A stretch of 64,000 nt of DNA from an uncultured Nitrososphaerales archaeon (GTDB taxonomy: Archaea > Thermoproteota > Nitrososphaeria > Nitrososphaerales > Nitrososphaeraceae). The stretch covers positions 1 to 64,000 of the forward strand of contig CAVPXM010000030.1 in assembly GCA_963709405.1 (NCBI GenBank), read 5' to 3'. Of this stretch, positions 42,849 to 64,000 are shown piece after piece (the first letter of the stretch is position 1; each line of letters opens with the position of its first letter). Both the position numbers and the translations under genes were made by a program. The notes beneath the pieces are model-generated. The model was not told the DNA's origin, made no database searches, and worked only from the letters and a program-made list of their open reading frames with translations.

Positions 42849-43856
42849 CAGGTACCAGAATCAGAGTACATTTTAGATTCAATAAGAAATCTTTTTTTCT
42901 GTATCTTACTAAGTGACAATTGTCTCTTCCTCACTGGATGCAGCACGTATGCCATGCTGCAGACCTACTCATACTGTTTGTGTTATTCATGCGCATCACT
43001 TCTGTAAAACGCTTAATCTCAGCTATATCCTAGATGAATATTACTGCTTAGGTATGTGCAAAAATGCACAGGTTAACGCAAAATATTCACATATCGTAAT
43101 CATCACCAATTATTCTGCATCTTTTCTCAAATATAGATAAGAAGAATAGATATAACAATGCGTAATAATGGTCAGGCAATATTTTTCCAAGCCTATTATA
43201 GTGTTTCCGATAAACAATCCACAATAAATTCTAAATTTGCTCACGAAAATGCACGTGTATTCTAAAGACCTGCCTGTCGTGTTTTGTATTTAGCCATCCA
43301 TTATTTACCTTATAAGGATTATTCGAGATTGCGTGGATCGTTTCTACGTTAAATTACACTATGCCATATCCAAGGCGGGTTTCCCGTGTTCCGCCTAGTC
43401 TATATCAACATATCTGTTTGGAATTTGAGTTCAAACCTAGCATAAATCTAATCATTTGCTATTTTATAAAAGACGATTCTGGGAATAATGCAGATAAAAA
43501 GTAATTGTAAATACACTTCGGCTTAGTCTCAGTCCTCATGAGAGAATCAATCATCGTGTTACGCACAAAAACAAGATCAATAAAGATGGATGTCAACTCT
43601 AAATGAAAAACTATAATGACCTAAAATTCTATGATAGAGATTGATCTATGAATAGGCTAAATTACCTATCAGGATCTTTCAATTTGGTTCTGCATTTATA
43701 TGGGTTTGAAGCGCAAGGCGATATTTATGCTATTCCAAGACGATGACCTGTTTGAAAGATGATAATAACAATAAAACAATAATTTGTTATCGGATATTGT
43801 TATTTAGAGAAGTAGCATATGTATTTTTAAGATGGTATTAAGTAAGTAAGTAAAGC

Positions 43857-48007: not shown

Positions 48008-51000
48008 CTATTGATCATCAGTCCCACTTTTATTGATTTCAGTATTGTCTATCCTTGTTAGTTGATATACGCTCTTTTTTAAGTCAATTATGCTTCTCGT
48101 ATAAAATACCGCACTAAATATAATACCAGCAGCAACAGCTGGCCCGATAATATCAGCATAGCGGAAACCCAATTGAGGAATCCCATTGTTTTTATTAATT
48201 AAATTCCTATTATCAGTGCTAATGGATGAAGATACCTGACTTGAGCTTGAACTCGCTTGTAATGTACCTGTGACAGCATTTACTGTGCCAAGTGAATTAC
48301 CTCTTTGTTCTGCAAACCATATATTTCCATTAGAGTCTGCAGTTAACCATTGAGTGAAGGGGTTTTTTGCTGGAAGATCAATATCTTTATGTTCTCCGGT
48401 TGTAGTATCAATAATCGATATTTTATTTATGACATGTTCTGCAATCCACAGATTATGGTAACCATCTAGTGCCATTCCAAATGGCAGGCCTTTAGGATTT
48501 AGTCCTGCGTATCGTTTGAACGTCTTTAATACAGGATCAAAAACACTCACTGCATGACCGTCGTGTTCTGAGATATATATATTGCCAGTATCTGGATCGA
48601 TAAGCAAAGCCGTAGGACTCTTCAATGAGCCATTAGTATTAATATTTTCATTCGTTACCGGATATTCTGCTATCTTATATCCATTGTTAGTATCTATGCT
48701 TCCAATCTTTCCGGAACCACCTTCGGCAAACCAAATCAAACCCTCGTTATCAGCAGCGATGCCTAGCGGGCCGGCATTCGACGTCGGTAAGAGATACTTA
48801 GTAAAAATTTTTGATTGCGCATTGAACCTTAATATCTCATTATCAGCGGGTAATGTTATCCAGATATTGGTGTCTGTACTATTATTGCCGGTATTGGCGA
48901 CCGTAATACCAGATGGTGGCCCTTGACTTTGTATTCGATAGAGAGTATTTCTATTGGTATTAGGATCATAGTTTCCTAGATTCCTGTTCAATGGATCAAT
49001 GTACCAAATATCGTTATTATGATTTGAATTAAGAGCAATACCTGTAACAATACTTGTTGCATTAAGTTTATGAGAATAATATTTACCACTACTCAGATTG
49101 AATGCCAACAGTCTTCCACTACCTATGGCAGTATCGCCAACCCAGATTACATTTCTATTTCTGTCATAAACCGGATAAAGCGGTTGGCTCACTGTACCAT
49201 TAGTGTTCAAATCTGAGGGAATACGAAATTCTTTAACATTGAATTTCGTCTGATCAAGAGACGGTTTGACTAACAAGTCATAAGTACCCACAACATTTGG
49301 TTCATTTTTTTTATTCGGCGTGCCCTCAATCTGAATTTCCCATTTTCCAGGCAATCCAAAAGATGCACTAGCTGAAAATACACCTTTGGAAGAAGAGACT
49401 CGTTTGGTATCGACTTCAATCGGCCCGATACCCTTATCAGTTTGCGTAAATCTCATCTTCGCTGAACTAATGTCTACTGGATTCCATGTTGAATTCAAAA
49501 ACTTTATTTGGAAATTGTTACTGCCGGGTGCGAAAGGATCTACGGAAAGAGTAATGATATCTCCGTCTTCAGTAAAAGTAGTTGAAGTAAATGGTTTGTT
49601 GCTTGATTGTACAGGGATGAATTGACTATTCTCATACTGTTGCTTCTGTTGTTGTATGAGATTCTGAAACTCACTTGCCGGCAATCCACTATTGACCATT
49701 ACTGCTACAGCTAGAAGTAGTGCAATCCCGATTAAGGCTTCTATCTTTGTAGTCTTATCGAATTTTGATATCGCTGTCGGGGCCAGTGATGGAGAGCTGA
49801 AATTTTCGCCATTACTTCTCTTATTCTCGCTAACGTCTGGGTGAGTTAATTTCTCTTGTGAAGACGTGTCTGTGCCAAAGTATCGCCTAAATGTTCTTTT
49901 ATTCTTGCTGATTCTTTTTTTTCCTTCCAGAGTCGCTTTAATCGCGATAATTGTCGATTCCTTCAAGGCTTGAGGATAAATTCTAGCCTGATTATATCCT
50001 CCAATAGATATCATCACTGCCGCAAGGGATAGTTTAATAATCAAAACTTTTCCATAGAAAGAAGCTAAGGTCAATGCCAGATTGTTTTCCAATATATACA
50101 ACAAAAATGGTCCGGTAATTACAATCACCCCTAGTACCGTTACTGGTATCGTGGAAAACCTGGGAATTATTACTGATAAAATCGAAGCTTTTATACGTTC
50201 ATCTAGGTTTCCTCGTTTTATGCTAGGTACTACTACAAAAGCAAGATATATCAATCCACCAATCCAAAAAGAAGCCGCCAAATTGTGAATAAAATCTATA
50301 ATAATTGATGTAAACGCATTTCCTGATACAGCTGCACCGTGGCTAATTAGACTTGTGGTAAACAGCGTGAGAACACCAATTATCAAGAAGCTAGTGACCA
50401 CTTTCGTAGAAAGTCTAATTGAGGAATAGTTTGACTCGAGTTTCTTACTATTCTTTCCAAAGTTTTTTATGGTTGCAAATCTCAATATTCCTTGCCTATA
50501 ACAAAATAGCATGGACATACTAACTAATATAAACGAAAGAACCGTTCTAATGATCCAGACGCTTCCAAATTTGGTAGCTATAGCATCACCAATTGTTGCG
50601 TTTATGGAAGACGCTTGAACAGATATCATGGCAATATCTGAGAAAATCAGAATTAATGAGCCAACGAGCATCAAAACATAGAAATTGCGATCAATTCGAT
50701 ATTTCGTTACTGTGAAAGAAGTATTTAGCCAGTCAATCCTAGTTAAAGGCTTCCATATCCACAGAGCTAGGAACGCCCCACCTACTACGATCACCTGACC
50801 TACTAGGGTAGGAAATCTTGCAATCGCATCAGGAATCGAAAGCTGCGAAGACGGTGTAGCACTGGATCCAGATGCTCCCATAGTACTGGGAATCGTAGCC
50901 TTACCAACCCCAAAAACGAATGCATTATCAGTAACATGACCGTCCACCTCTGACAACATTTTTGTAGATACTGTGTAGATTCCATCACCAATACCTGCTG

Positions 51001-51400
51001 GCAAGGTTAGGCTCAGTGAAGTATGGTCGCCATTAACATAATGTAGGTCTTTTTTATCTACTTCCTTTCCATTTGAATCGACAACTGAAACCTTGCTATA
51101 ACGTACATCTACTGGTTCACTTAACGATACTTGAACCTTCGAGGGCGGTGTTTTTAATGTTTGTGATGGCGACGGATCGCTATTTATTACAAATGCGTGT
51201 CCATATGAATTCTGAAGCAAAAATGGTGTAAACATTAGAACAAAAATTGAAAAAGACATAGCCACGATTACGATCAAGACAAAAAGATTATTCCTATCTT
51301 TACCTGACTGGATATTGATTCCATCAGTCATACACAGTACACCTCCAATTATGTAGGGATCATTAGAATTTATAGTATTTGAGAATTTTATTCCTGACAT
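48008..51400 (-). CDS. Copper-handling fusion: CopC - CopD - YtkA-like - Vgb/NHL beta-propeller, C-terminal membrane anchor
   Basis: SYG/HAFVINSDP and VDGH (CopC); SHGAA, FIHNLAASFWIGG, RFS, KIE (CopD); GKWEIQI; repeated P.GIA.D..G.IWFAE blades; true start probably later than the tracked ATG. Confidence 0.9.
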   Translation of the reverse strand: MSGIKFSNTINSNDPYIIGGVLCMTDGINIQSGKDRNNLFVLIVIVAMSFSIFVLMFTPFLLQNSYGHAFVINSDPSPSQTLKTPPSKVQVSLSEPVDVRYSKVSVVDSNGKEVDKKDLHYVNGDHTSLSLTLPAGIGDGIYTVSTKMLSEVDGHVTDNAFVFGVGKATIPSTMGASGSSATPSSQLSIPDAIARFPTLVGQVIVVGGAFLALWIWKPLTRIDWLNTSFTVTKYRIDRNFYVLMLVGSLILIFSDIAMISVQASSINATIGDAIATKFGSVWIIRTVLSFILVSMSMLFCYRQGILRFATIKNFGKNSKKLESNYSSIRLSTKVVTSFLIIGVLTLFTTSLISHGAAVSGNAFTSIIIDFIHNLAASFWIGGLIYLAFVVVPSIKRGNLDERIKASILSVIIPRFSTIPVTVLGVIVITGPFLLYILENNLALTLASFYGKVLIIKLSLAAVMISIGGYNQARIYPQALKESTIIAIKATLEGKKRISKNKRTFRRYFGTDTSSQEKLTHPDVSENKRSNGENFSSPSLAPTAISKFDKTTKIEALIGIALLLAVAVMVNSGLPASEFQNLIQQQKQQYENSQFIPVQSSNKPFTSTTFTEDGDIITLSVDPFAPGSNNFQIKFLNSTWNPVDISSAKMRFTQTDKGIGPIEVDTKRVSSSKGVFSASASFGLPGKWEIQIEGTPNKKNEPNVVGTYDLLVKPSLDQTKFNVKEFRIPSDLNTNGTVSQPLYPVYDRNRNVIWVGDTAIGSGRLLAFNLSSGKYYSHKLNATSIVTGIALNSNHNNDIWYIDPLNRNLGNYDPNTNRNTLYRIQSQGPPSGITVANTGNNSTDTNIWITLPADNEILRFNAQSKIFTKYLLPTSNAGPLGIAADNEGLIWFAEGGSGKIGSIDTNNGYKIAEYPVTNENINTNGSLKSPTALLIDPDTGNIYISEHDGHAVSVFDPVLKTFKRYAGLNPKGLPFGMALDGYHNLWIAEHVINKISIIDTTTGEHKDIDLPAKNPFTQWLTADSNGNIWFAEQRGNSLGTVNAVTGTLQASSSSSQVSSSISTDNRNLINKNNGIPQLGFRYADIIGPAVAAGIIFSAVFYTRSIIDLKKSVYQLTRIDNTEINKSGTDDQ

Positions 51401-53632: not shown

Positions 53633-54649
53633 TCACAGCATATAAAACATCTTCTTGATATCTGCAAACCTCTTTCTGAGGGTTACCATGCTGGTGCCAG
53701 CAGCTATAGCCATTTGTTCTTGCGTTATTCTTTCACCCTCTCTTATACATGCAGCATATAGTACAGCAACAGCTAATGCATTTGGATGCTTTCCTATAGC
53801 CATATGATCTTCATTTACTCTAGCTAACATCTCTAGCGCCCTCCTGTATGTCCTCTCACTCACTTCGGCTTTGCTAGCTATCTTTGACAGGTAGCTACTT
53901 GTGAGTACCACCGGAAGGGATTGAAGTTTGAGATGTCTTACGAGTAAACGATAACACTTGCTCACAAATGTTAGATCGCTATTTATGACTGTGGAAATTT
54001 CATCAAGCGTTCTTGGAACACTTAGTTCTCTGCATGCAACATAGACAGAAGCAACGACCATTCCCTCGATTGATCTGCCTTTAATCAGATTCTTGTCGAG
54101 GGCTTTACGGTAATAATATGCAGCCTTTTCTGTTACTGGATCTGTTAAAGAAAGTTTGTCTTTAATTCGTGACATAATTTCGAAAGCATTATTTAGATTC
54201 CTCGCTGACTTATTATTATTATAGGTAGAAATCCTATTCCAACGACGCATTGCTCTTACTTTGTTAATTTGCTCTTGACTAAGCGCAGTCCCGTTCGCGT
54301 CCACGTTCGAATAGGATATGAATGTTGATAAACCCATATCATGAATAGCAAGTGAAGTAGGCATTCCAGTTCTCTCTTTCAGTTTAATATCTTCAAATTT
54401 ATGGATTCTCCATTCTGCTTCTAAAGATTGCATATTATCATATATTACCATACCACAATTGCTACAAACAACCTCGCCAGTCTCGGCGTCAAATATAGTA
54501 AGGCTACTACTGCAAAGGGAACAAATAGTGCTCAAATCAGAAGAGATATTGCCATGGACTAAAATATCTTCATCATTTAGATTAAGTTGTTTTGCAGATC
54601 CCTGGAAACCATCTGAACTTCCTTCACATAAAGATGATCTGTTATACAT
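53633..54649 (-). CDS. tfb: Transcription initiation factor B paralogue
   Basis: Zn ribbon CSLC..GEVVCSNCG, HDMGLST, two cyclin repeats (KGRSIEG.V.ASVY.ACR, GKHP..LA.AVLY). Confidence 0.93.
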   Translation of the reverse strand: MYNRSSLCEGSSDGFQGSAKQLNLNDEDILVHGNISSDLSTICSLCSSSLTIFDAETGEVVCSNCGMVIYDNMQSLEAEWRIHKFEDIKLKERTGMPTSLAIHDMGLSTFISYSNVDANGTALSQEQINKVRAMRRWNRISTYNNNKSARNLNNAFEIMSRIKDKLSLTDPVTEKAAYYYRKALDKNLIKGRSIEGMVVASVYVACRELSVPRTLDEISTVINSDLTFVSKCYRLLVRHLKLQSLPVVLTSSYLSKIASKAEVSERTYRRALEMLARVNEDHMAIGKHPNALAVAVLYAACIREGERITQEQMAIAAGTSMVTLRKRFADIKKMFYML

Positions 54650-61484: not shown

Positions 61485-62384
61485 CTACATTAGGTAGTTA
61501 GAAATTAATAGTTCTGTATGCCCCATACGCCTTAATGCATTCGAATTAATAGCTCTTAAAGTATTAACTTTTTTTATATTTTCAAAGTCATAATATAATT
61601 CTTTGACCAATGAGGTGTAGGAATTGCTAAGAAGGACCATACATTTTCTATCGTCGAGTTTCTTAAACAATCGTGCAAGCTCATATTGATCTTCATCCGT
61701 AAAACCGTTATCCGTATATCTCGTAAAGTTAGCAGTTCTGCTCATGGGGTCATATGGCGGATCTAGATAAATAAAGTCGCCCTCTCTTGCATTTTCGAGC
61801 AGTATTCGTTTATAATCGCCCAGTTCTATATGAATCTGTGATCCTTGAAGAACTTTACTAATGTTTCGAAGGTTCCCTTGATCGCATATACATGGATTTT
61901 TGTATCTACCCATAGGAACATTGAATTTACCCTGTCTGTTTACTCGATAGAGACCGTTGTAACATGTTTTGTTAAGTGTGATAAATCTTGCAGCCCTTTC
62001 GATGACATTCCTCTTGAGTGGAATAGCATCATCACGTAGAGAATAATAAAACTTAGCAGGAGATTTCTTATAGTCCTCTTCGTAGATGATTAAAATCTCA
62101 ATTAACCTCTCAACATTTGACTTCACGACGATATACGCATTAATTAGTTCTTCATTTAAATCTGATAGGAATGCGTCAAAATGAATATTATTTTTATTGA
62201 TCGTATGCAAGAATACGGCGCCGCCACCCAGAAAAGGTTCGAAGTATCTTCTGAAGTATGTTGGAATGAAGGTATCTATTCTAGATAGTAGTTGCGACTT
62301 TCCTCCAGCCCATTTTACGAATGGATACATTTTGTTGAAGTTTATAGGTAAAGCCTCAATTGATTGATCCATATTTTGGCCCAC
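61485..62384 (-). CDS. Dam-type (D12 class) DNA adenine methyltransferase
   Basis: KWAGGKSQL, YFEPFLGGGAV, CYNGLYRVN..G.FNVP.G.Y, YLDPPY, LLSNS, ELLISNY. Confidence 0.93.
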   Translation of the reverse strand: MGQNMDQSIEALPINFNKMYPFVKWAGGKSQLLSRIDTFIPTYFRRYFEPFLGGGAVFLHTINKNNIHFDAFLSDLNEELINAYIVVKSNVERLIEILIIYEEDYKKSPAKFYYSLRDDAIPLKRNVIERAARFITLNKTCYNGLYRVNRQGKFNVPMGRYKNPCICDQGNLRNISKVLQGSQIHIELGDYKRILLENAREGDFIYLDPPYDPMSRTANFTRYTDNGFTDEDQYELARLFKKLDDRKCMVLLSNSYTSLVKELYYDFENIKKVNTLRAINSNALRRMGHTELLISNYLM

Positions 62385-63184: not shown

Positions 63185-63664
63185 CTAACCGTCATATAAT
63201 AATATATTGCGACTTACTGGCTCATCATTGCTGGAACTAAGCAATGTTATATCTGGAATCGTCATTAATAATTTAGCGATCTCATCTTCTTTAGCAAGCA
63301 GCAGTATCTTCTTAGATACTGTACTAACTTCATCATTCAACGATCTAATAACACGAAGGCAGCCATTAATTCTATAATCATCATGTCCTTCCAGTTTATC
63401 CATATCTCTTTTGGTAAATGTACTGGTACGATCGACATCGGAGGCATCTATACCCTTCATAAGCGTAATGCTATGTACCTTATTCTTTAGTTTAGTTCTC
63501 ATTCTTACAAGTGCGGCTCTATGCCTAACAATGTCTCGTAGTTCCATTATTCTCTTGTTTGGAACATAGCATTAAGCTATGTATCCTCCTCTCAGTAGAT
63601 CAGCTAGTTTAACCGCATCAAGTTTGTCAGTCTTTATTTTAGCTGAGGCAATACTCTTGTCTTA
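63185..63664 (-). pseudogene. IS110-family transposase remnant, disrupted at TTA 63662-63664
   Basis: IASAKIKTDKLDAVKLADLLRGGYIA*CYVP..MELRDIVRHRAALVRMRTKLKN...LLMTIPDI; internal stop; C-terminal catalytic domain absent. Confidence 0.88.
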
Positions 63665-63688
63665 GAACCTATCCGAAAAGTAGTGGAG
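63665..63688 (+). mobile_element. IS5-type terminal sequence GAACCTATCCGAAAAG directly upstream of the array
   Basis: Follows TTA exactly where IS110 coding similarity stops; resembles both termini of the IS5 at 57095-57988. Confidence 0.65.
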
Positions 63689-63972
63689 GTTGTAATTTGA
63701 CTGATATAGGATTGAAACACTCTTCATCTCAGATTGTAGGTGTGTATGTTATTGCGTTGTAATTTGAGTAATATAGGATTGAAACAACGACTAGGCGGTG
63801 TTCAAGCGTTCCCGCCTAGATGGTTGTAATTTGAGTAATATAGGATTGAAACAACGACTAGGCGGTGCACGCCAATCCCCGCCTAGATGGTTGTAATTTG
63901 AGTAATATAGGATTGAAACTTAATACATGCATACTAGGTATAGGTATGGATAAACAGTTGTAATTTGACTAA
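63689..63972 (+). CRISPR. Mini CRISPR array: four full 30-nt repeats, one interrupted repeat, four 37-nt spacers; no leader, no cas genes in window
   Basis: Repeat GTTGTAATTTGAGTAATATAGGATTGAAAC at 63756, 63823, 63890; 2-mismatch variant at 63689; 16-nt partial at 63957; exact 67-nt period; 3' ATTGAAAC typical of Cas6-processed type I-B/I-A/III repeats. Confidence 0.93.
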
Positions 63973-64000
63973 GAACGTATCCGAAAATTCCAACTCTTCT
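63973..64000 (+). mobile_element. Start of a second IS5-type element inserted into repeat 5 (runs off window)
   Basis: TAA followed by GAACGTATCCGAAAATTCC; 14/15 identical to the terminus at 63665. Confidence 0.6.

What the first reader, a model, noticed from the sequence alone, without database searches (positions are those of the whole stretch)
63786..63889. Two consecutive spacers share a fixed hairpin scaffold with a swapped 10-nt core
Seen: spacer 2 is AACGA-CTAGGCGG-TG[TTCAAGCGTT]C-CCGCCTAG-ATG and spacer 3 is AACGA-CTAGGCGG-TG[CACGCCAATC]C-CCGCCTAG-ATG. Both are 37 nt with identical ends (27/37), a perfect 8-bp stem and a 13-nt loop whose central 10 nt differ at every position. Established: Cas1-Cas2 spacers are normally unrelated, duplicated spacers drift by point changes, and strong internal hairpins impair guide function. 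Inference, three options: (a) independent acquisitions in the same register from two copies of a repeated palindromic element; (b) Cas6-released structured RNAs whose variable loop is the functional unit (decoy, regulator or short guide); (c) the DNA palindromes are protein-binding or recombination sites stored in the array.
Basis: partly seen in the sequence, partly recalled or inferred. Interest (0 to 1): 0.85.

Follow-up and report, generated by a model that had tools for sequence, protein, structure and literature searches.

The report
Hairpin spacer family in transposon-borne mini-arrays
The two look-alike hairpin spacers belong to a dozen-copy family of one spacer type that travels, with the rest of a small relic CRISPR array, on a jumping gene scattered through a soil ammonia-oxidising archaeon; only the hairpin loop differs between copies, and the reason is still open.

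Summary
The sequence is as described, with one correction. Spacers 2 and 3 differ at 8 of the 10 core positions, not 10, so 29 of 37 bases are identical. The pair is not a local oddity. The array lies between two same-direction ends of an IS5-family insertion sequence. About 15 such mini-arrays are scattered over 10 contigs of this genome and share a small set of "spacer" modules (A-F).

The hairpin spacer (module B) occurs 12 times in 11 arrays, plus two decayed relics. Its arms are essentially invariant. Its loop has 11 distinct versions, with diversity 0.43 against about 0.06 in the repeats.

The genome has a type I-B interference locus with a related repeat. Searches found no cas1, cas2, type III or TnpB genes. 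No protospacer or B-like hairpin turned up in 200 related genomes, IMG/VR, JGI metagenomes, phage or plasmid sets.

Public contigs confirm spacer 3. They show the same locus with only one B unit in other samples. The tandem pair itself is therefore unverified.

Best reading, at 40% confidence: these are relic, IS-amplified arrays, and B is an old paralogous spacer family taken from a palindromic site with a variable centre. A functional hairpin RNA or loop hypermutation is not excluded.

The parts
63661..63688 (+). Outer IS5-type terminal inverted repeat (CTTAGAACCTATCCGAAAA, 63661-63679) plus a 9-nt linker (GTAGTGGAG). It takes the place of a leader. The sequence to its left is unique.
   Evidence: IR hit at C30 63661-63679, 1 mismatch; the same IR plus GTAGTTGAG sits 24 nt before the first repeat in 11 of 14 array loci examined; the linker equals the inner side of the IS left end.
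63689..63718 (+). Repeat 1 (2 mismatches to the commonest form)
63719..63755 (+). Spacer 1 = module A, shared with 5 other array loci
   Evidence: 6 copies, mean pairwise difference 0.098
63756..63785 (+). Repeat 2
63786..63822 (+). Spacer 2 = hairpin module B, loop TTCAAGCGTT (alpha lineage). The 3' half of its loop is not covered by any contig of the 4 public runs laid.
63823..63852 (+). Repeat 3
63853..63889 (+). Spacer 3 = hairpin module B, loop CACGCCAATC (beta lineage; closest copy at C63:258380-258416). Confirmed in runs X5 and X1.
63890..63919 (+). Repeat 4
63920..63956 (+). Spacer 4 = module E, shared with 4 other loci
63957..63972 (+). Repeat 5, cut after GTTGTAATTTGAC-TAA by the insertion sequence
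   Evidence: (D1 fifth copy 69%). The same junction occurs at 9 of 14 loci.
63969..64000 (-). Inner terminal inverted repeat (63969-63987) and start of a decayed IS4/IS5-family element. The transposase is read on the minus strand. The element runs on to about 64613 of the contig, beyond the window.
   Evidence: DDE_Tnp_1 on the C30 fragment, E=3.5e-6; DUF4096 + DDE_Tnp_1 on a fuller copy on C18 whose reading frame is split between the two domains.
43371..43398 (-). Decayed relic of a B unit followed by the start of a repeat, in a 1.4-kb stretch without long ORFs
   Evidence: the local alignment to repeat-B3-repeat scores 28, and 0 of 500 shuffles reach it.

Best explanation
The window holds one copy of a relic CRISPR mini-array that has become a passenger of an IS5-family insertion sequence. 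Its structure is: outer IS end, array, truncated repeat, then an IS in inverse orientation. With that IS, the array has been spread to about 15 places in the genome of a soil ammonia-oxidising archaeon.

The hairpin spacer (module B) is one of about six modules these arrays share.

**Shown:**
- B has normal spacer length (36-38 nt) and sits in one register.
- Its arms are invariant.
- Its loop varies about 7 times more than the repeats.
- The loops are still recognisably homologous and fall into lineages.
- B content at one locus differs between samples.

**Inferred:**
- The B units are old paralogues. They were captured, when an adaptation module was still present, from a palindromic site with a variable centre in several copies or variants of an unknown mobile element. 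The PAM (protospacer-adjacent motif) fixed the register.
- Alternatively, they were duplicated early within one array.
- They diverged long before the IS-driven spread.
- Since then they have been sorted and shuffled by unit loss and recombination between repeats and between the constant arms.
- The two neighbours in the window are an alpha-lineage unit and a beta-lineage unit that this copy retains, or regained, side by side.
- As guides they are probably inert.
For: **IS context**
- Two same-direction IS ends bracket the array.
- The neighbouring element is an IS4/IS5 DDE transposase.
- There are 141 such ends in the genome.

**Dispersal**
- 37 repeat hits fall in 15 clusters on 10 contigs.
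- The clusters share modules: A in 6 loci, B in 11, C in 3, D in 3, E in 5, F in 5. The modules keep a consistent order.

**B family**
- There are 12 units, 11 of them with perfect identical arms.
- 12 of 14 loop columns are variable against 10 of 51 elsewhere (Fisher p = 1e-5).
- Diversity is 0.43 in the loop, 0.00 and 0.04 in the arms, and 0.06 in the repeats.
- Loops share T[T/A]C...A[A/T]C and form lineages.

**Age**
- IS copies next to the arrays differ by only 1.9-6.3%. Core loop diversity is 0.52. The loop divergence therefore predates the spread.

**Stability**
- The C49-type and C55-type B units occur unchanged in another study's run.

**Unit turnover**
- The same locus reads A-B3-E in run X1 and A-B(C50 type)-E in run X2, against A-B2-B3-E here.

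**No present adaptation**
- Cas1, Cas2, RAMP and TnpB families give 0 hits in the 91%-complete genome.
- A type I-B cas6-array-cas8b-cas7-cas5-cas3 locus carries a related repeat.

**The repeat is a normal CRISPR repeat**
- It appears with unrelated spacers in a same-genus genome and in one metagenome contig.
Against: - No protospacer or free B-like element was found anywhere. Searches covered the own genome outside arrays and relics, 200 family genomes by pattern, 149 by each covariance model, JGI metagenomes and IMG/VR, and phage and plasmid records.
- The model needs roughly ten distinct B units in the ancestral array, yet no array with more than two is seen.
- Between C21:283350 and C59 the following spacer D shares an identical 33-nt stretch, while the B loops differ at 4 of 10 positions. 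Between C30 and C50 the loop differs at about 3 of 10 positions, against about 3% elsewhere. These comparisons are by eye.
- The loops are C-rich (34%) and G-poor (10%) on the repeat strand, against 18.6% each in the genome (the copies are not independent). This hints at a strand-specific constraint.
- B is the most often retained module.
Confidence: 0.4

Rival explanations
1. The B unit is a functional structured RNA carried by the IS composite. Cas6 or read-through transcription releases a hairpin. Its constant stem is the selected feature. Its loop is either irrelevant (a decoy that ties up Cas6 or Cas7, like an RNA anti-CRISPR) or the specificity element (short antisense or kissing-loop regulator).
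For: - The arms are invariant while everything else drifts.
- The stem is extended by pairing between the flanking repeats.
- The loop is strand-asymmetric, C-rich and G-poor.
- B is present in 11 of 15 loci, more than any other module.
- It is carried by a mobile element.
- RNA-library contigs cover array units (weak, and could be DNA).
Against: - There is no covariation. The arms are identical in sequence, which common descent alone explains.
- After the spread, arm changes (1 degenerate copy of 12) are about what the drift of other modules predicts.
- There is no conservation outside one species.
- Loop words have only chance-level matches in the genome.
- No spacer matches the IS over 10 nt or more.
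- cas6 shows only its C-terminal domain, in a 146-aa frame.
Confidence: 0.2
2. The loop is mutated in place faster than its surroundings, without function. The cause could be exposure of the loop when the palindrome extrudes as single-stranded DNA, or error-prone synthesis through the hairpin at each transposition or repair event. Every new copy would then receive its own loop.
For: - There are 11 distinct loops among 12 units, and loops are related by single-base steps.
- Loops differ by 20-60% between composites whose IS parts differ by about 3%.
- The neighbouring spacer D shares an identical 33-nt stretch while the loops differ.
- Loops are stable between samples at paralogous loci. That fits change at duplication rather than continuous change.
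Against: - An 8-bp stem with a 13-nt loop is a weak cruciform.
- The changes include all substitution types and indels, not a deamination signature.
- C50 and C97 share one loop although their IS parts differ by 1.9%.
- No comparable mechanism is known to me for archaeal IS5 elements (recalled, not searched).
Confidence: 0.2
3. The side-by-side pair in this window is an assembly product. A population mixture of strains carrying either an alpha-type or a beta-type B unit at this locus was threaded into a tandem. This concerns only the adjacency, not the family.
For: In one search, run X1 (best holder, 0.85 of words) and run X5 show or fit A-B3-E. Run X2 shows a single alpha-type unit. No contig of the 4 runs carries spacer 2's exact loop, which is also unique in the genome.
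Against: - The two loops are 57 nt apart, so reads of 100-150 nt would span both, and a false tandem is not an easy assembler error.
- Logan contigs break at every 30-nt repeat and drop rare variants (notes).
- The run that the genome was assembled from is not known to be among the four.
Confidence: 0.2
4. The palindrome is a DNA site for a dimeric protein or recombinase, with 8-bp half-sites and an uncontacted 13-bp spacer, stored in the array.
For: The half-sites are conserved and the centre is variable. The motif is almost confined to these units: 25 of 55 genomic occurrences of the 8-mer lie in them.
Against: - No candidate protein travels with the element except the transposase.
- The unit obeys spacer length and register, which a protein site has no reason to do.
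- There is no such site outside arrays and their relics.
Confidence: 0.05

Closest known systems
Mini-CRISPR arrays borne by mobile elements (virus-borne mini-arrays of Sulfolobales viruses, Medvedeva et al. 2019, PMC6858448: search listing and abstract seen; review PMC11656645: passages seen)
   Same: A cas-less array of 1-4 spacers is carried inside a mobile element. Its repeat belongs to the host's CRISPR repeat class.
   Different: - The carrier here is an IS5-family insertion sequence composite, not a virus.
- The array has been amplified to about 15 genomic loci.
- The repeat is only 23/30 identical to the host's cas-linked repeat.
- No spacer matches a related element.
- The review's text contains no occurrence of 'insertion sequence'.
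Stand-alone CRISPR arrays on integrated mobile elements of Thaumarchaeota (Krupovic et al. 2019, PMC6563490: passages seen)
   Same: It is the same phylum-level host group (AmoA present). The repeats are type I-B-related, the arrays sit on mobile DNA without cas genes, and an IS5 expansion is reported in one soil lineage.
   Different: Those arrays are long (69-96 spacers), lie on conjugative elements and have diverse spacers. Here the arrays are tiny, IS-borne and built from shared modules that include a hairpin family.
RNA anti-CRISPRs (Racr) from solitary repeat units (Camara-Wilpert et al. 2023, PMC10651486: search listing and abstract seen)
   Same: Repeat-like RNA units encoded by mobile elements could engage Cas6 or Cas7 unproductively. 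A hairpin in the spacer position would plausibly block guide function.
   Different: Nothing here shows inhibition. The units are full repeat-spacer-repeat units, not solitary repeats. The carrier is a resident IS.
Transposons that insert into CRISPR repeats (Tn7-like family in Cyanobacteria, PMC11837452: search listing and abstract seen)
   Same: A transposable element is joined to a CRISPR repeat at a fixed position. Here that is after GTTGTAATTTGAC-TAA, at 9 of 14 loci.
   Different: This is a DDE IS5-type element with a TWA target. The shared junction is mostly inherited by copying rather than repeated targeting. The array then moves with the IS.
   Same: A degenerate mini-array in a type I-B host whose 'spacer' is conserved rather than acquired.
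   Different: - It is not inside the cas operon.
- No adjacent small toxin gene was identified.
- No partial match of any module to neighbouring DNA of 10 nt or more was found.
- It is multi-copy on an IS.

Membership tests
CRISPR array | Regularly spaced direct repeats of constant length | tested here: met
   5 copies, spacing 67 nt, 30-nt repeat; weak CRISPR-DR matches below the gathering score.
CRISPR array | Spacers of constant length that are unrelated to each other | tested here: not met
   Lengths are 36-38 nt. However, spacers 2 and 3 are 29/37 identical, and all spacers are modules shared among loci.
CRISPR array | Repeat related to that of a cas-linked array in the same genome | tested here: met
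   The C46 array next to cas6/cas8b/cas7/cas5/cas3 has the repeat GTTTAAATCGAACTATTATAGGATTGAAAG. It is 23/30 identical, counted by eye, with the same 3' TATAGGATTGAAA.
CRISPR array | Leader and adaptation genes (cas1, cas2) | tested here: not met
   An IS end lies 9 nt before repeat 1. PF01867 and PF09827 give 0 hits in the 91%-complete genome. Absence from an incomplete assembly is not proof.
MGE-borne mini-CRISPR array | Array lies inside a mobile element and is copied with it | tested here: met
   An outer and an inner IS5-type end bracket the array. There are 15 dispersed loci with unique outer flanks. The 3-bp TAA duplications at both ends of 2 composites are uninformative, because the target is always TWA.
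MGE-borne mini-CRISPR array | Spacers target related or competing mobile elements | tested here: not met
   There are no matches of modules A-F outside arrays in the own genome and none to the IS. There are none in IMG/VR for A, E, F or the B scaffold, and none in phage or plasmid records. C and D were not scanned in IMG/VR.
RNA anti-CRISPR / solitary repeat unit | Repeat-mimic RNA that binds Cas proteins and inhibits interference | not testable with these tools
   Only the fold and the carriage on an IS could be shown.
IS5 family (IS4/IS5 DDE transposons) | DDE_Tnp_1 transposase with DUF4096 N-terminal part, and terminal inverted repeats | tested here: met
   PF01609 at 6.8e-17 and PF13340 at 3.5e-15 on the C18 copy; PF01609 at 3.5e-6 on the C30 fragment; paired inverted ends about 880-990 bp apart.
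CreTA (CreA-like mini-array) | Pseudo-spacer partly matching the promoter of an adjacent small toxin gene, inside a cas locus | tested here: not met
   It is not in the cas locus. There is no match of 10 nt or more between any module and the neighbouring IS. Shorter seed matches were not evaluated.

The most novel reading that the evidence does not exclude
The hairpin unit is a purpose-built cargo of the IS5 composite. It would be a Cas6-processed (or repeat-promoted) structured small RNA whose constant stem blocks normal Cascade loading, so that it acts as an RNA anti-CRISPR or decoy. Its loop, renewed in nearly every copy, would serve as a copy-specific recognition element. That would make it a transposon-borne, crRNA-shaped regulatory RNA family.
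Probability: 0.15. Interest if true: 0.8.

Novelty: new variant of a known kind. Interest (0 to 1): 0.5.

Why it matters
If the ordinary reading holds, this is a clear natural example of a CRISPR array being captured by an insertion sequence. The array was multiplied to about 15 loci and then eroded differently in each copy, in a genome where no adaptation genes were found. That matters for anyone who counts arrays or spacers in soil archaeal MAGs. Shared "spacers" and orphan mini-arrays here reflect transposition, not immunity history.

The hairpin family also offers a rare internal clock contrast: invariant arms, a near-saturated loop and IS neighbours only 2-6% apart. This makes two questions testable. 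Do palindromic spacers persist because of what they were taken from? Or do they persist because the hairpin does something as RNA? If the latter, it would extend RNA-based anti-CRISPR or crRNA-like regulators from viruses to simple insertion sequences in archaea.

Tried and rejected
**Protospacer hunts, all negative**
- Own genome, by BLAST-short for modules A-F and both B units.
- Hairpin patterns, exact and relaxed. They found only array units, one chance-like site set and the two relics.
- Strict scaffold in 200 family genomes, JGI metagenome contigs and IMG/VR.
- 20-nt cores of A, E and F in IMG/VR.
- The whole array against phage and plasmid records. The only hits had E = 4 and were noise.

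**A wasted scan.** The generic palindrome CTAGGCGG-N12-14-CCGCCTAG was a poor choice for genome contigs and IMG/VR. Among 140 matches inspected, none has B's asymmetric flanks. This used the only genome-contig scan, so the strict scaffold was never scanned there.

**Covariance models.** R1 (repeat-B-repeat) and R2 (B alone) were run against 149 other family genomes each.
- R1 gave only hits of 29 bits or less. The six inspected were ordinary repeat-spacer units, solitary degenerate repeats or chance.
- R2's best hit had E = 0.25.

**A false lead.** B, D and two foreign hits seemed to share 'GAAAC-AATGACTA'. A 17-mer search with up to 2 mismatches in 238 family genomes was noise, with control counts similar. 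The exact and 1-mismatch hits lie in a protein-coding gene. One search flagged nine unpublished genomes; no claim here rests on them.

**Other negatives**
- Loop words against the genome gave chance-level counts.
- No second hypervariable patch was found in the IS.
- No spacer-IS match of 10 nt or more was found.
- No TnpB/Cas12f-type domain was found.
- Rfam gave only sub-threshold CRISPR-DR matches.

**Sequencing runs.** RNA run X18 gave two low-depth contigs over array units. This is told only as a weak hint. The lack of cover of spacer 2 in the 4 runs is no proof of absence.

**Literature.** 'CRISPR' with 'palindromic spacers' gave 0 papers. 'CRISPR, mini-array, insertion sequence, archaea' gave 2 papers, neither describing IS-borne arrays by title or abstract. 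Searches listed nothing describing a hairpin-scaffold spacer family. I did not read those papers in full, and supplements were closed.
Full report
**1. Observation**

The end of the window holds four 30-nt repeats (GTTGTAATTTGA[G/C]TAATATAGGATTGAAAC) at 63689, 63756, 63823 and 63890, with a truncated fifth at 63957. Spacing is 67 nt and spacers are 37 nt.

The two 67-nt units are 88% identical. They differ at 8 columns, not 10: core positions 3 and 9 are shared, so 29 of 37 bases are identical.

Each spacer folds into an 8-bp stem with a 13-nt loop (z about -3). In context the stem is lengthened by ACAAC/GUUGU pairing between the flanking repeats. The resemblance is far beyond chance.

**2. 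Local anatomy**

- Nine bases before repeat 1 lies a 19-nt sequence, CTTAGAACCTATCCGAAAA (63661-63679).
- It recurs, in the same direction, at 63969-63987, immediately after the first 13-16 bases of repeat 5.
- To the right, on the minus strand, is a decayed transposase with an in-frame stop. It is truncated at about 64613 of the contig.
- Its fragment and a fuller copy elsewhere (split into separate reading frames) match DDE_Tnp_1 and DUF4096, the IS4/IS5 transposase domains.
- The genome holds 141 matches to this end sequence, many in inverted pairs 880-990 bp apart.
- The nine-base linker equals the inner side of the IS left end.

The array therefore sits where the interior of an IS should be: outer IS end, array, then an inverted IS that cuts the last repeat at a TAA.

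**3. Genome-wide picture**

With up to 6 mismatches the repeat occurs 37 times, in 15 clusters of 1-4 repeats on 10 contigs.

- Printed side by side and parsed, the "spacers" are a small set of shared modules.
- A occurs in 6 loci, the hairpin B in 11 loci (12 units), C in 3, D in 3, E in 5 and F in 5.
- The order is always A, then B, then C/D, then E or F.
- Eleven of 14 loci examined have the outer IS end plus linker, with unique DNA outside it.
- Nine of 14 have an IS joined to the truncated last repeat.

These are copies of one array that has been moved around with the IS and eroded differently in each place.

**4. The hairpin family**

- The exact palindrome occurs 11 times, all inside arrays. 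A twelfth unit, on C55, has a degenerate arm.
- Two free-standing look-alikes lie at window 43371-43398 (minus strand) and at C63:86046-86084.
- Both align with repeat-B-repeat beyond the hairpin. They include the end or the start of a repeat, and 0 of 500 shuffles reach their scores. They are decayed array units, not an independent genomic element.
- The 8-mer arm is otherwise not enriched: 30 occurrences outside B units against about 40 expected.

In the alignment of the 12 units with repeat flanks, variation is concentrated in the loop:

| Region | Variable columns | Mean pairwise difference |
|---|---|---|
| Loop | 12 of 14 | 0.43 (0.52 in the core) |
| Everything outside the loop | 10 of 51 | see next two rows |
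| Two arms | 0 of 8 and 2 of 8 | 0.00 and 0.04 |
| Flanking repeats | 3 of 14 and 2 of 13 | about 0.06 |

- The loop against the rest gives Fisher p = 1e-5.
- Eleven of 12 loops are distinct.
- The loops are still homologous (T[T/A]C...A[A/T]C) and fall into lineages.
- Alpha, TTCAAGC..., is found in C30 spacer 2, C50, C97 and C63:192k.
- Beta, [C/T]ACGC[C/G]AATC, is found in C30 spacer 3 and C63:258k.
- A gamma group of three exists, plus singles.
- The window's pair is thus one alpha unit next to one beta unit.
- Loops are C-rich (34%) and G-poor (10%) on the repeat strand. The copies are not independent.

**5. Timing**

The IS parts next to six arrays differ pairwise by 1.9-6.3% and show no second hypervariable patch. 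Other modules differ by 0-10%. Loop divergence is therefore roughly ten times older than, or faster than, the IS-driven spread.

**6. Cas content and host**

- One locus on C46 reads cas6, a five-repeat array with unrelated spacers, cas8b, cas7, cas5 and cas3.
- Its repeat shares 23 of 30 bases with the mini-array repeat, including the 3' TATAGGATTGAAA.
- cas6 shows only its C-terminal domain, in a 146-aa open frame.
- Cas1, Cas2, RAMP and TnpB/Cas12f families give no hit in the 91%-complete assembly.
- The genome encodes archaeal AmoA and TFIIB. Its holders are soil, sediment, peat and biofilm metagenomes.

**7. Elsewhere**

- The repeat occurs with ordinary, unrelated spacers in one of six other genomes of the genus. 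There it is followed by an IS-end-like remnant.
- It also occurs in one JGI metagenome contig.
- The hairpin scaffold occurs in none of the following: 200 other family genomes, 149 genomes searched with each of two covariance models, JGI metagenomes or IMG/VR, and phage or plasmid records.

**8. Independent sequence data (Logan contigs of 4 runs only)**

- Spacer 3 between two repeats is reproduced exactly in run X5.
- Run X1 has a contig running from the end of this locus's own version of spacer 1, through a repeat, into spacer 3, spacer 4 and the IS.
- Run X2 has a contig that spans the unique left flank to position 64000 with one B unit. By its coordinates, that unit's loop is the 38-nt C50/C97 form.
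- No contig carries spacer 2's exact loop.
- Run X2 also contains the C49-type and C55-type B units unchanged.
- The loops are therefore stable between samples, while the number and identity of B units at this locus vary. The tandem itself remains unverified.
- An RNA-library run has low-depth contigs over array units, which is at most a hint of transcription.

**9. Interpretation**

- Shown: the array is an IS5 passenger in many copies.
- Shown: B is a spacer-length, fixed-register family with invariant arms and divergent but homologous loops.
- Shown: loop divergence far exceeds that of the neighbouring DNA.
- Shown: unit content turns over between samples.
- Inferred (40%): the B units are old paralogues. 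They were captured in one register from a palindromic site with a variable centre in several copies or variants of an unknown element, or duplicated early. They were later sorted by recombination between repeats and between the 15- and 12-nt constant arms. That recombination would also explain why most arrays keep exactly one B.
- Against this reading, no source was found, no array holds more than two B units, loop differences sit next to identical neighbouring spacers, and the loop composition is skewed.
- Rivals: a functional hairpin RNA, decoy or regulator (20%); in-place loop hypermutation tied to the hairpin or to transposition (20%); a protein-binding palindrome (5%).
- Separately, there is about a 20% chance that the adjacency in this assembly is artificial.

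**10. Comparison and novelty**

Cas-less mini-arrays on mobile elements are known from viruses (PMC6858448, abstract; PMC11656645, passages). Stand-alone arrays are known on thaumarchaeal integrated elements (PMC6563490, passages). Repeat-mimic RNAs act as anti-CRISPRs (PMC10651486, abstract).

I found no description of an insertion-sequence-borne, genome-amplified mini-array or of a hairpin-scaffold spacer family (searches, by listings and abstracts only). I class this as a new variant of a known kind.

**11. Limits**

- Only contigs, not reads, could be laid.
- The strict scaffold was not scanned in genome contigs.
- Several counts of identity between short units were made by eye from printed alignments.

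Noticed in passing
G000 contig C46:900-7600 (locus L010): The only cas locus found reads cas6, a 5-repeat array, cas8b, cas7, cas5 and cas3. cas6 matches only the C-terminal Cas6 domain, in a 146-aa open frame. No cas1, cas2 or cas4-type adaptation genes lie nearby. The contig starts about 1 kb upstream, so more may be missing.
   Followed up: partly
window 43371-43398 (minus strand): A GC-rich hairpin in a 1.4-kb ORF-poor stretch is a decayed B unit followed by the start of a repeat. A second relic lies at C63:86046-86084, about 430 nt from another mini-array.
   Followed up: yes
whole genome G000: There is a large expansion of IS5-family elements: 141 matches to the terminal repeat, in at least two subfamilies about 81% alike. 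Many copies next to arrays carry frameshifts or in-frame stops.
   Followed up: partly
G000 C50:68551-68715 and C97:2767-2931: Two arrays (A-B-E) lack the outer IS end. Their unique flanks begin exactly at the first base of repeat 1, so they were not placed by the same outer-end route, or they lost it.
   Followed up: no
G000 C63:192330-192486: One repeat of this array carries an insertion that makes a short palindrome inside the repeat (…TAATATCCGATATCGGATTGAAAC).
   Followed up: no
G000 C63:208931-209632: About 11 tandem copies of a 66-nt unit (TTTTCAGATGAGGATGG…), near-identical. They are probably inside a repetitive coding region and are unrelated to the CRISPR repeats.
   Followed up: no
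window 61485-62384 (-), 53633-54649 (-), 48008-51400 (-): Neighbouring genes are a D12-class N6-adenine DNA methyltransferase, a TFIIB homologue, and a 1130-aa protein combining CopC, CopD, YtkA and beta-propeller (Vgb-lyase/SGL-like) domains.
   Followed up: no
IMG/VR loci L036, L038, L041, L045-L047, L051, L052, L054, L055: Ten viral contigs share one conserved hairpin, GGACTAGGCGGC-N-AGGGAGACTGAACCGCCTAGTTTAA. It has the same 8-bp arms as module B but a conserved, unrelated loop and different flanks. This is probably coincidence of the arms.
   Followed up: no
Read-laying run X18 (RNA library), window 63703-63984: A 151-nt contig joins spacer 1's repeat directly to repeat 4, spacer 4 and the IS end, which is an A-E array form. 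Another contig matches the C49-type locus. Array units are thus present in an RNA library at depth about 2.
   Followed up: no
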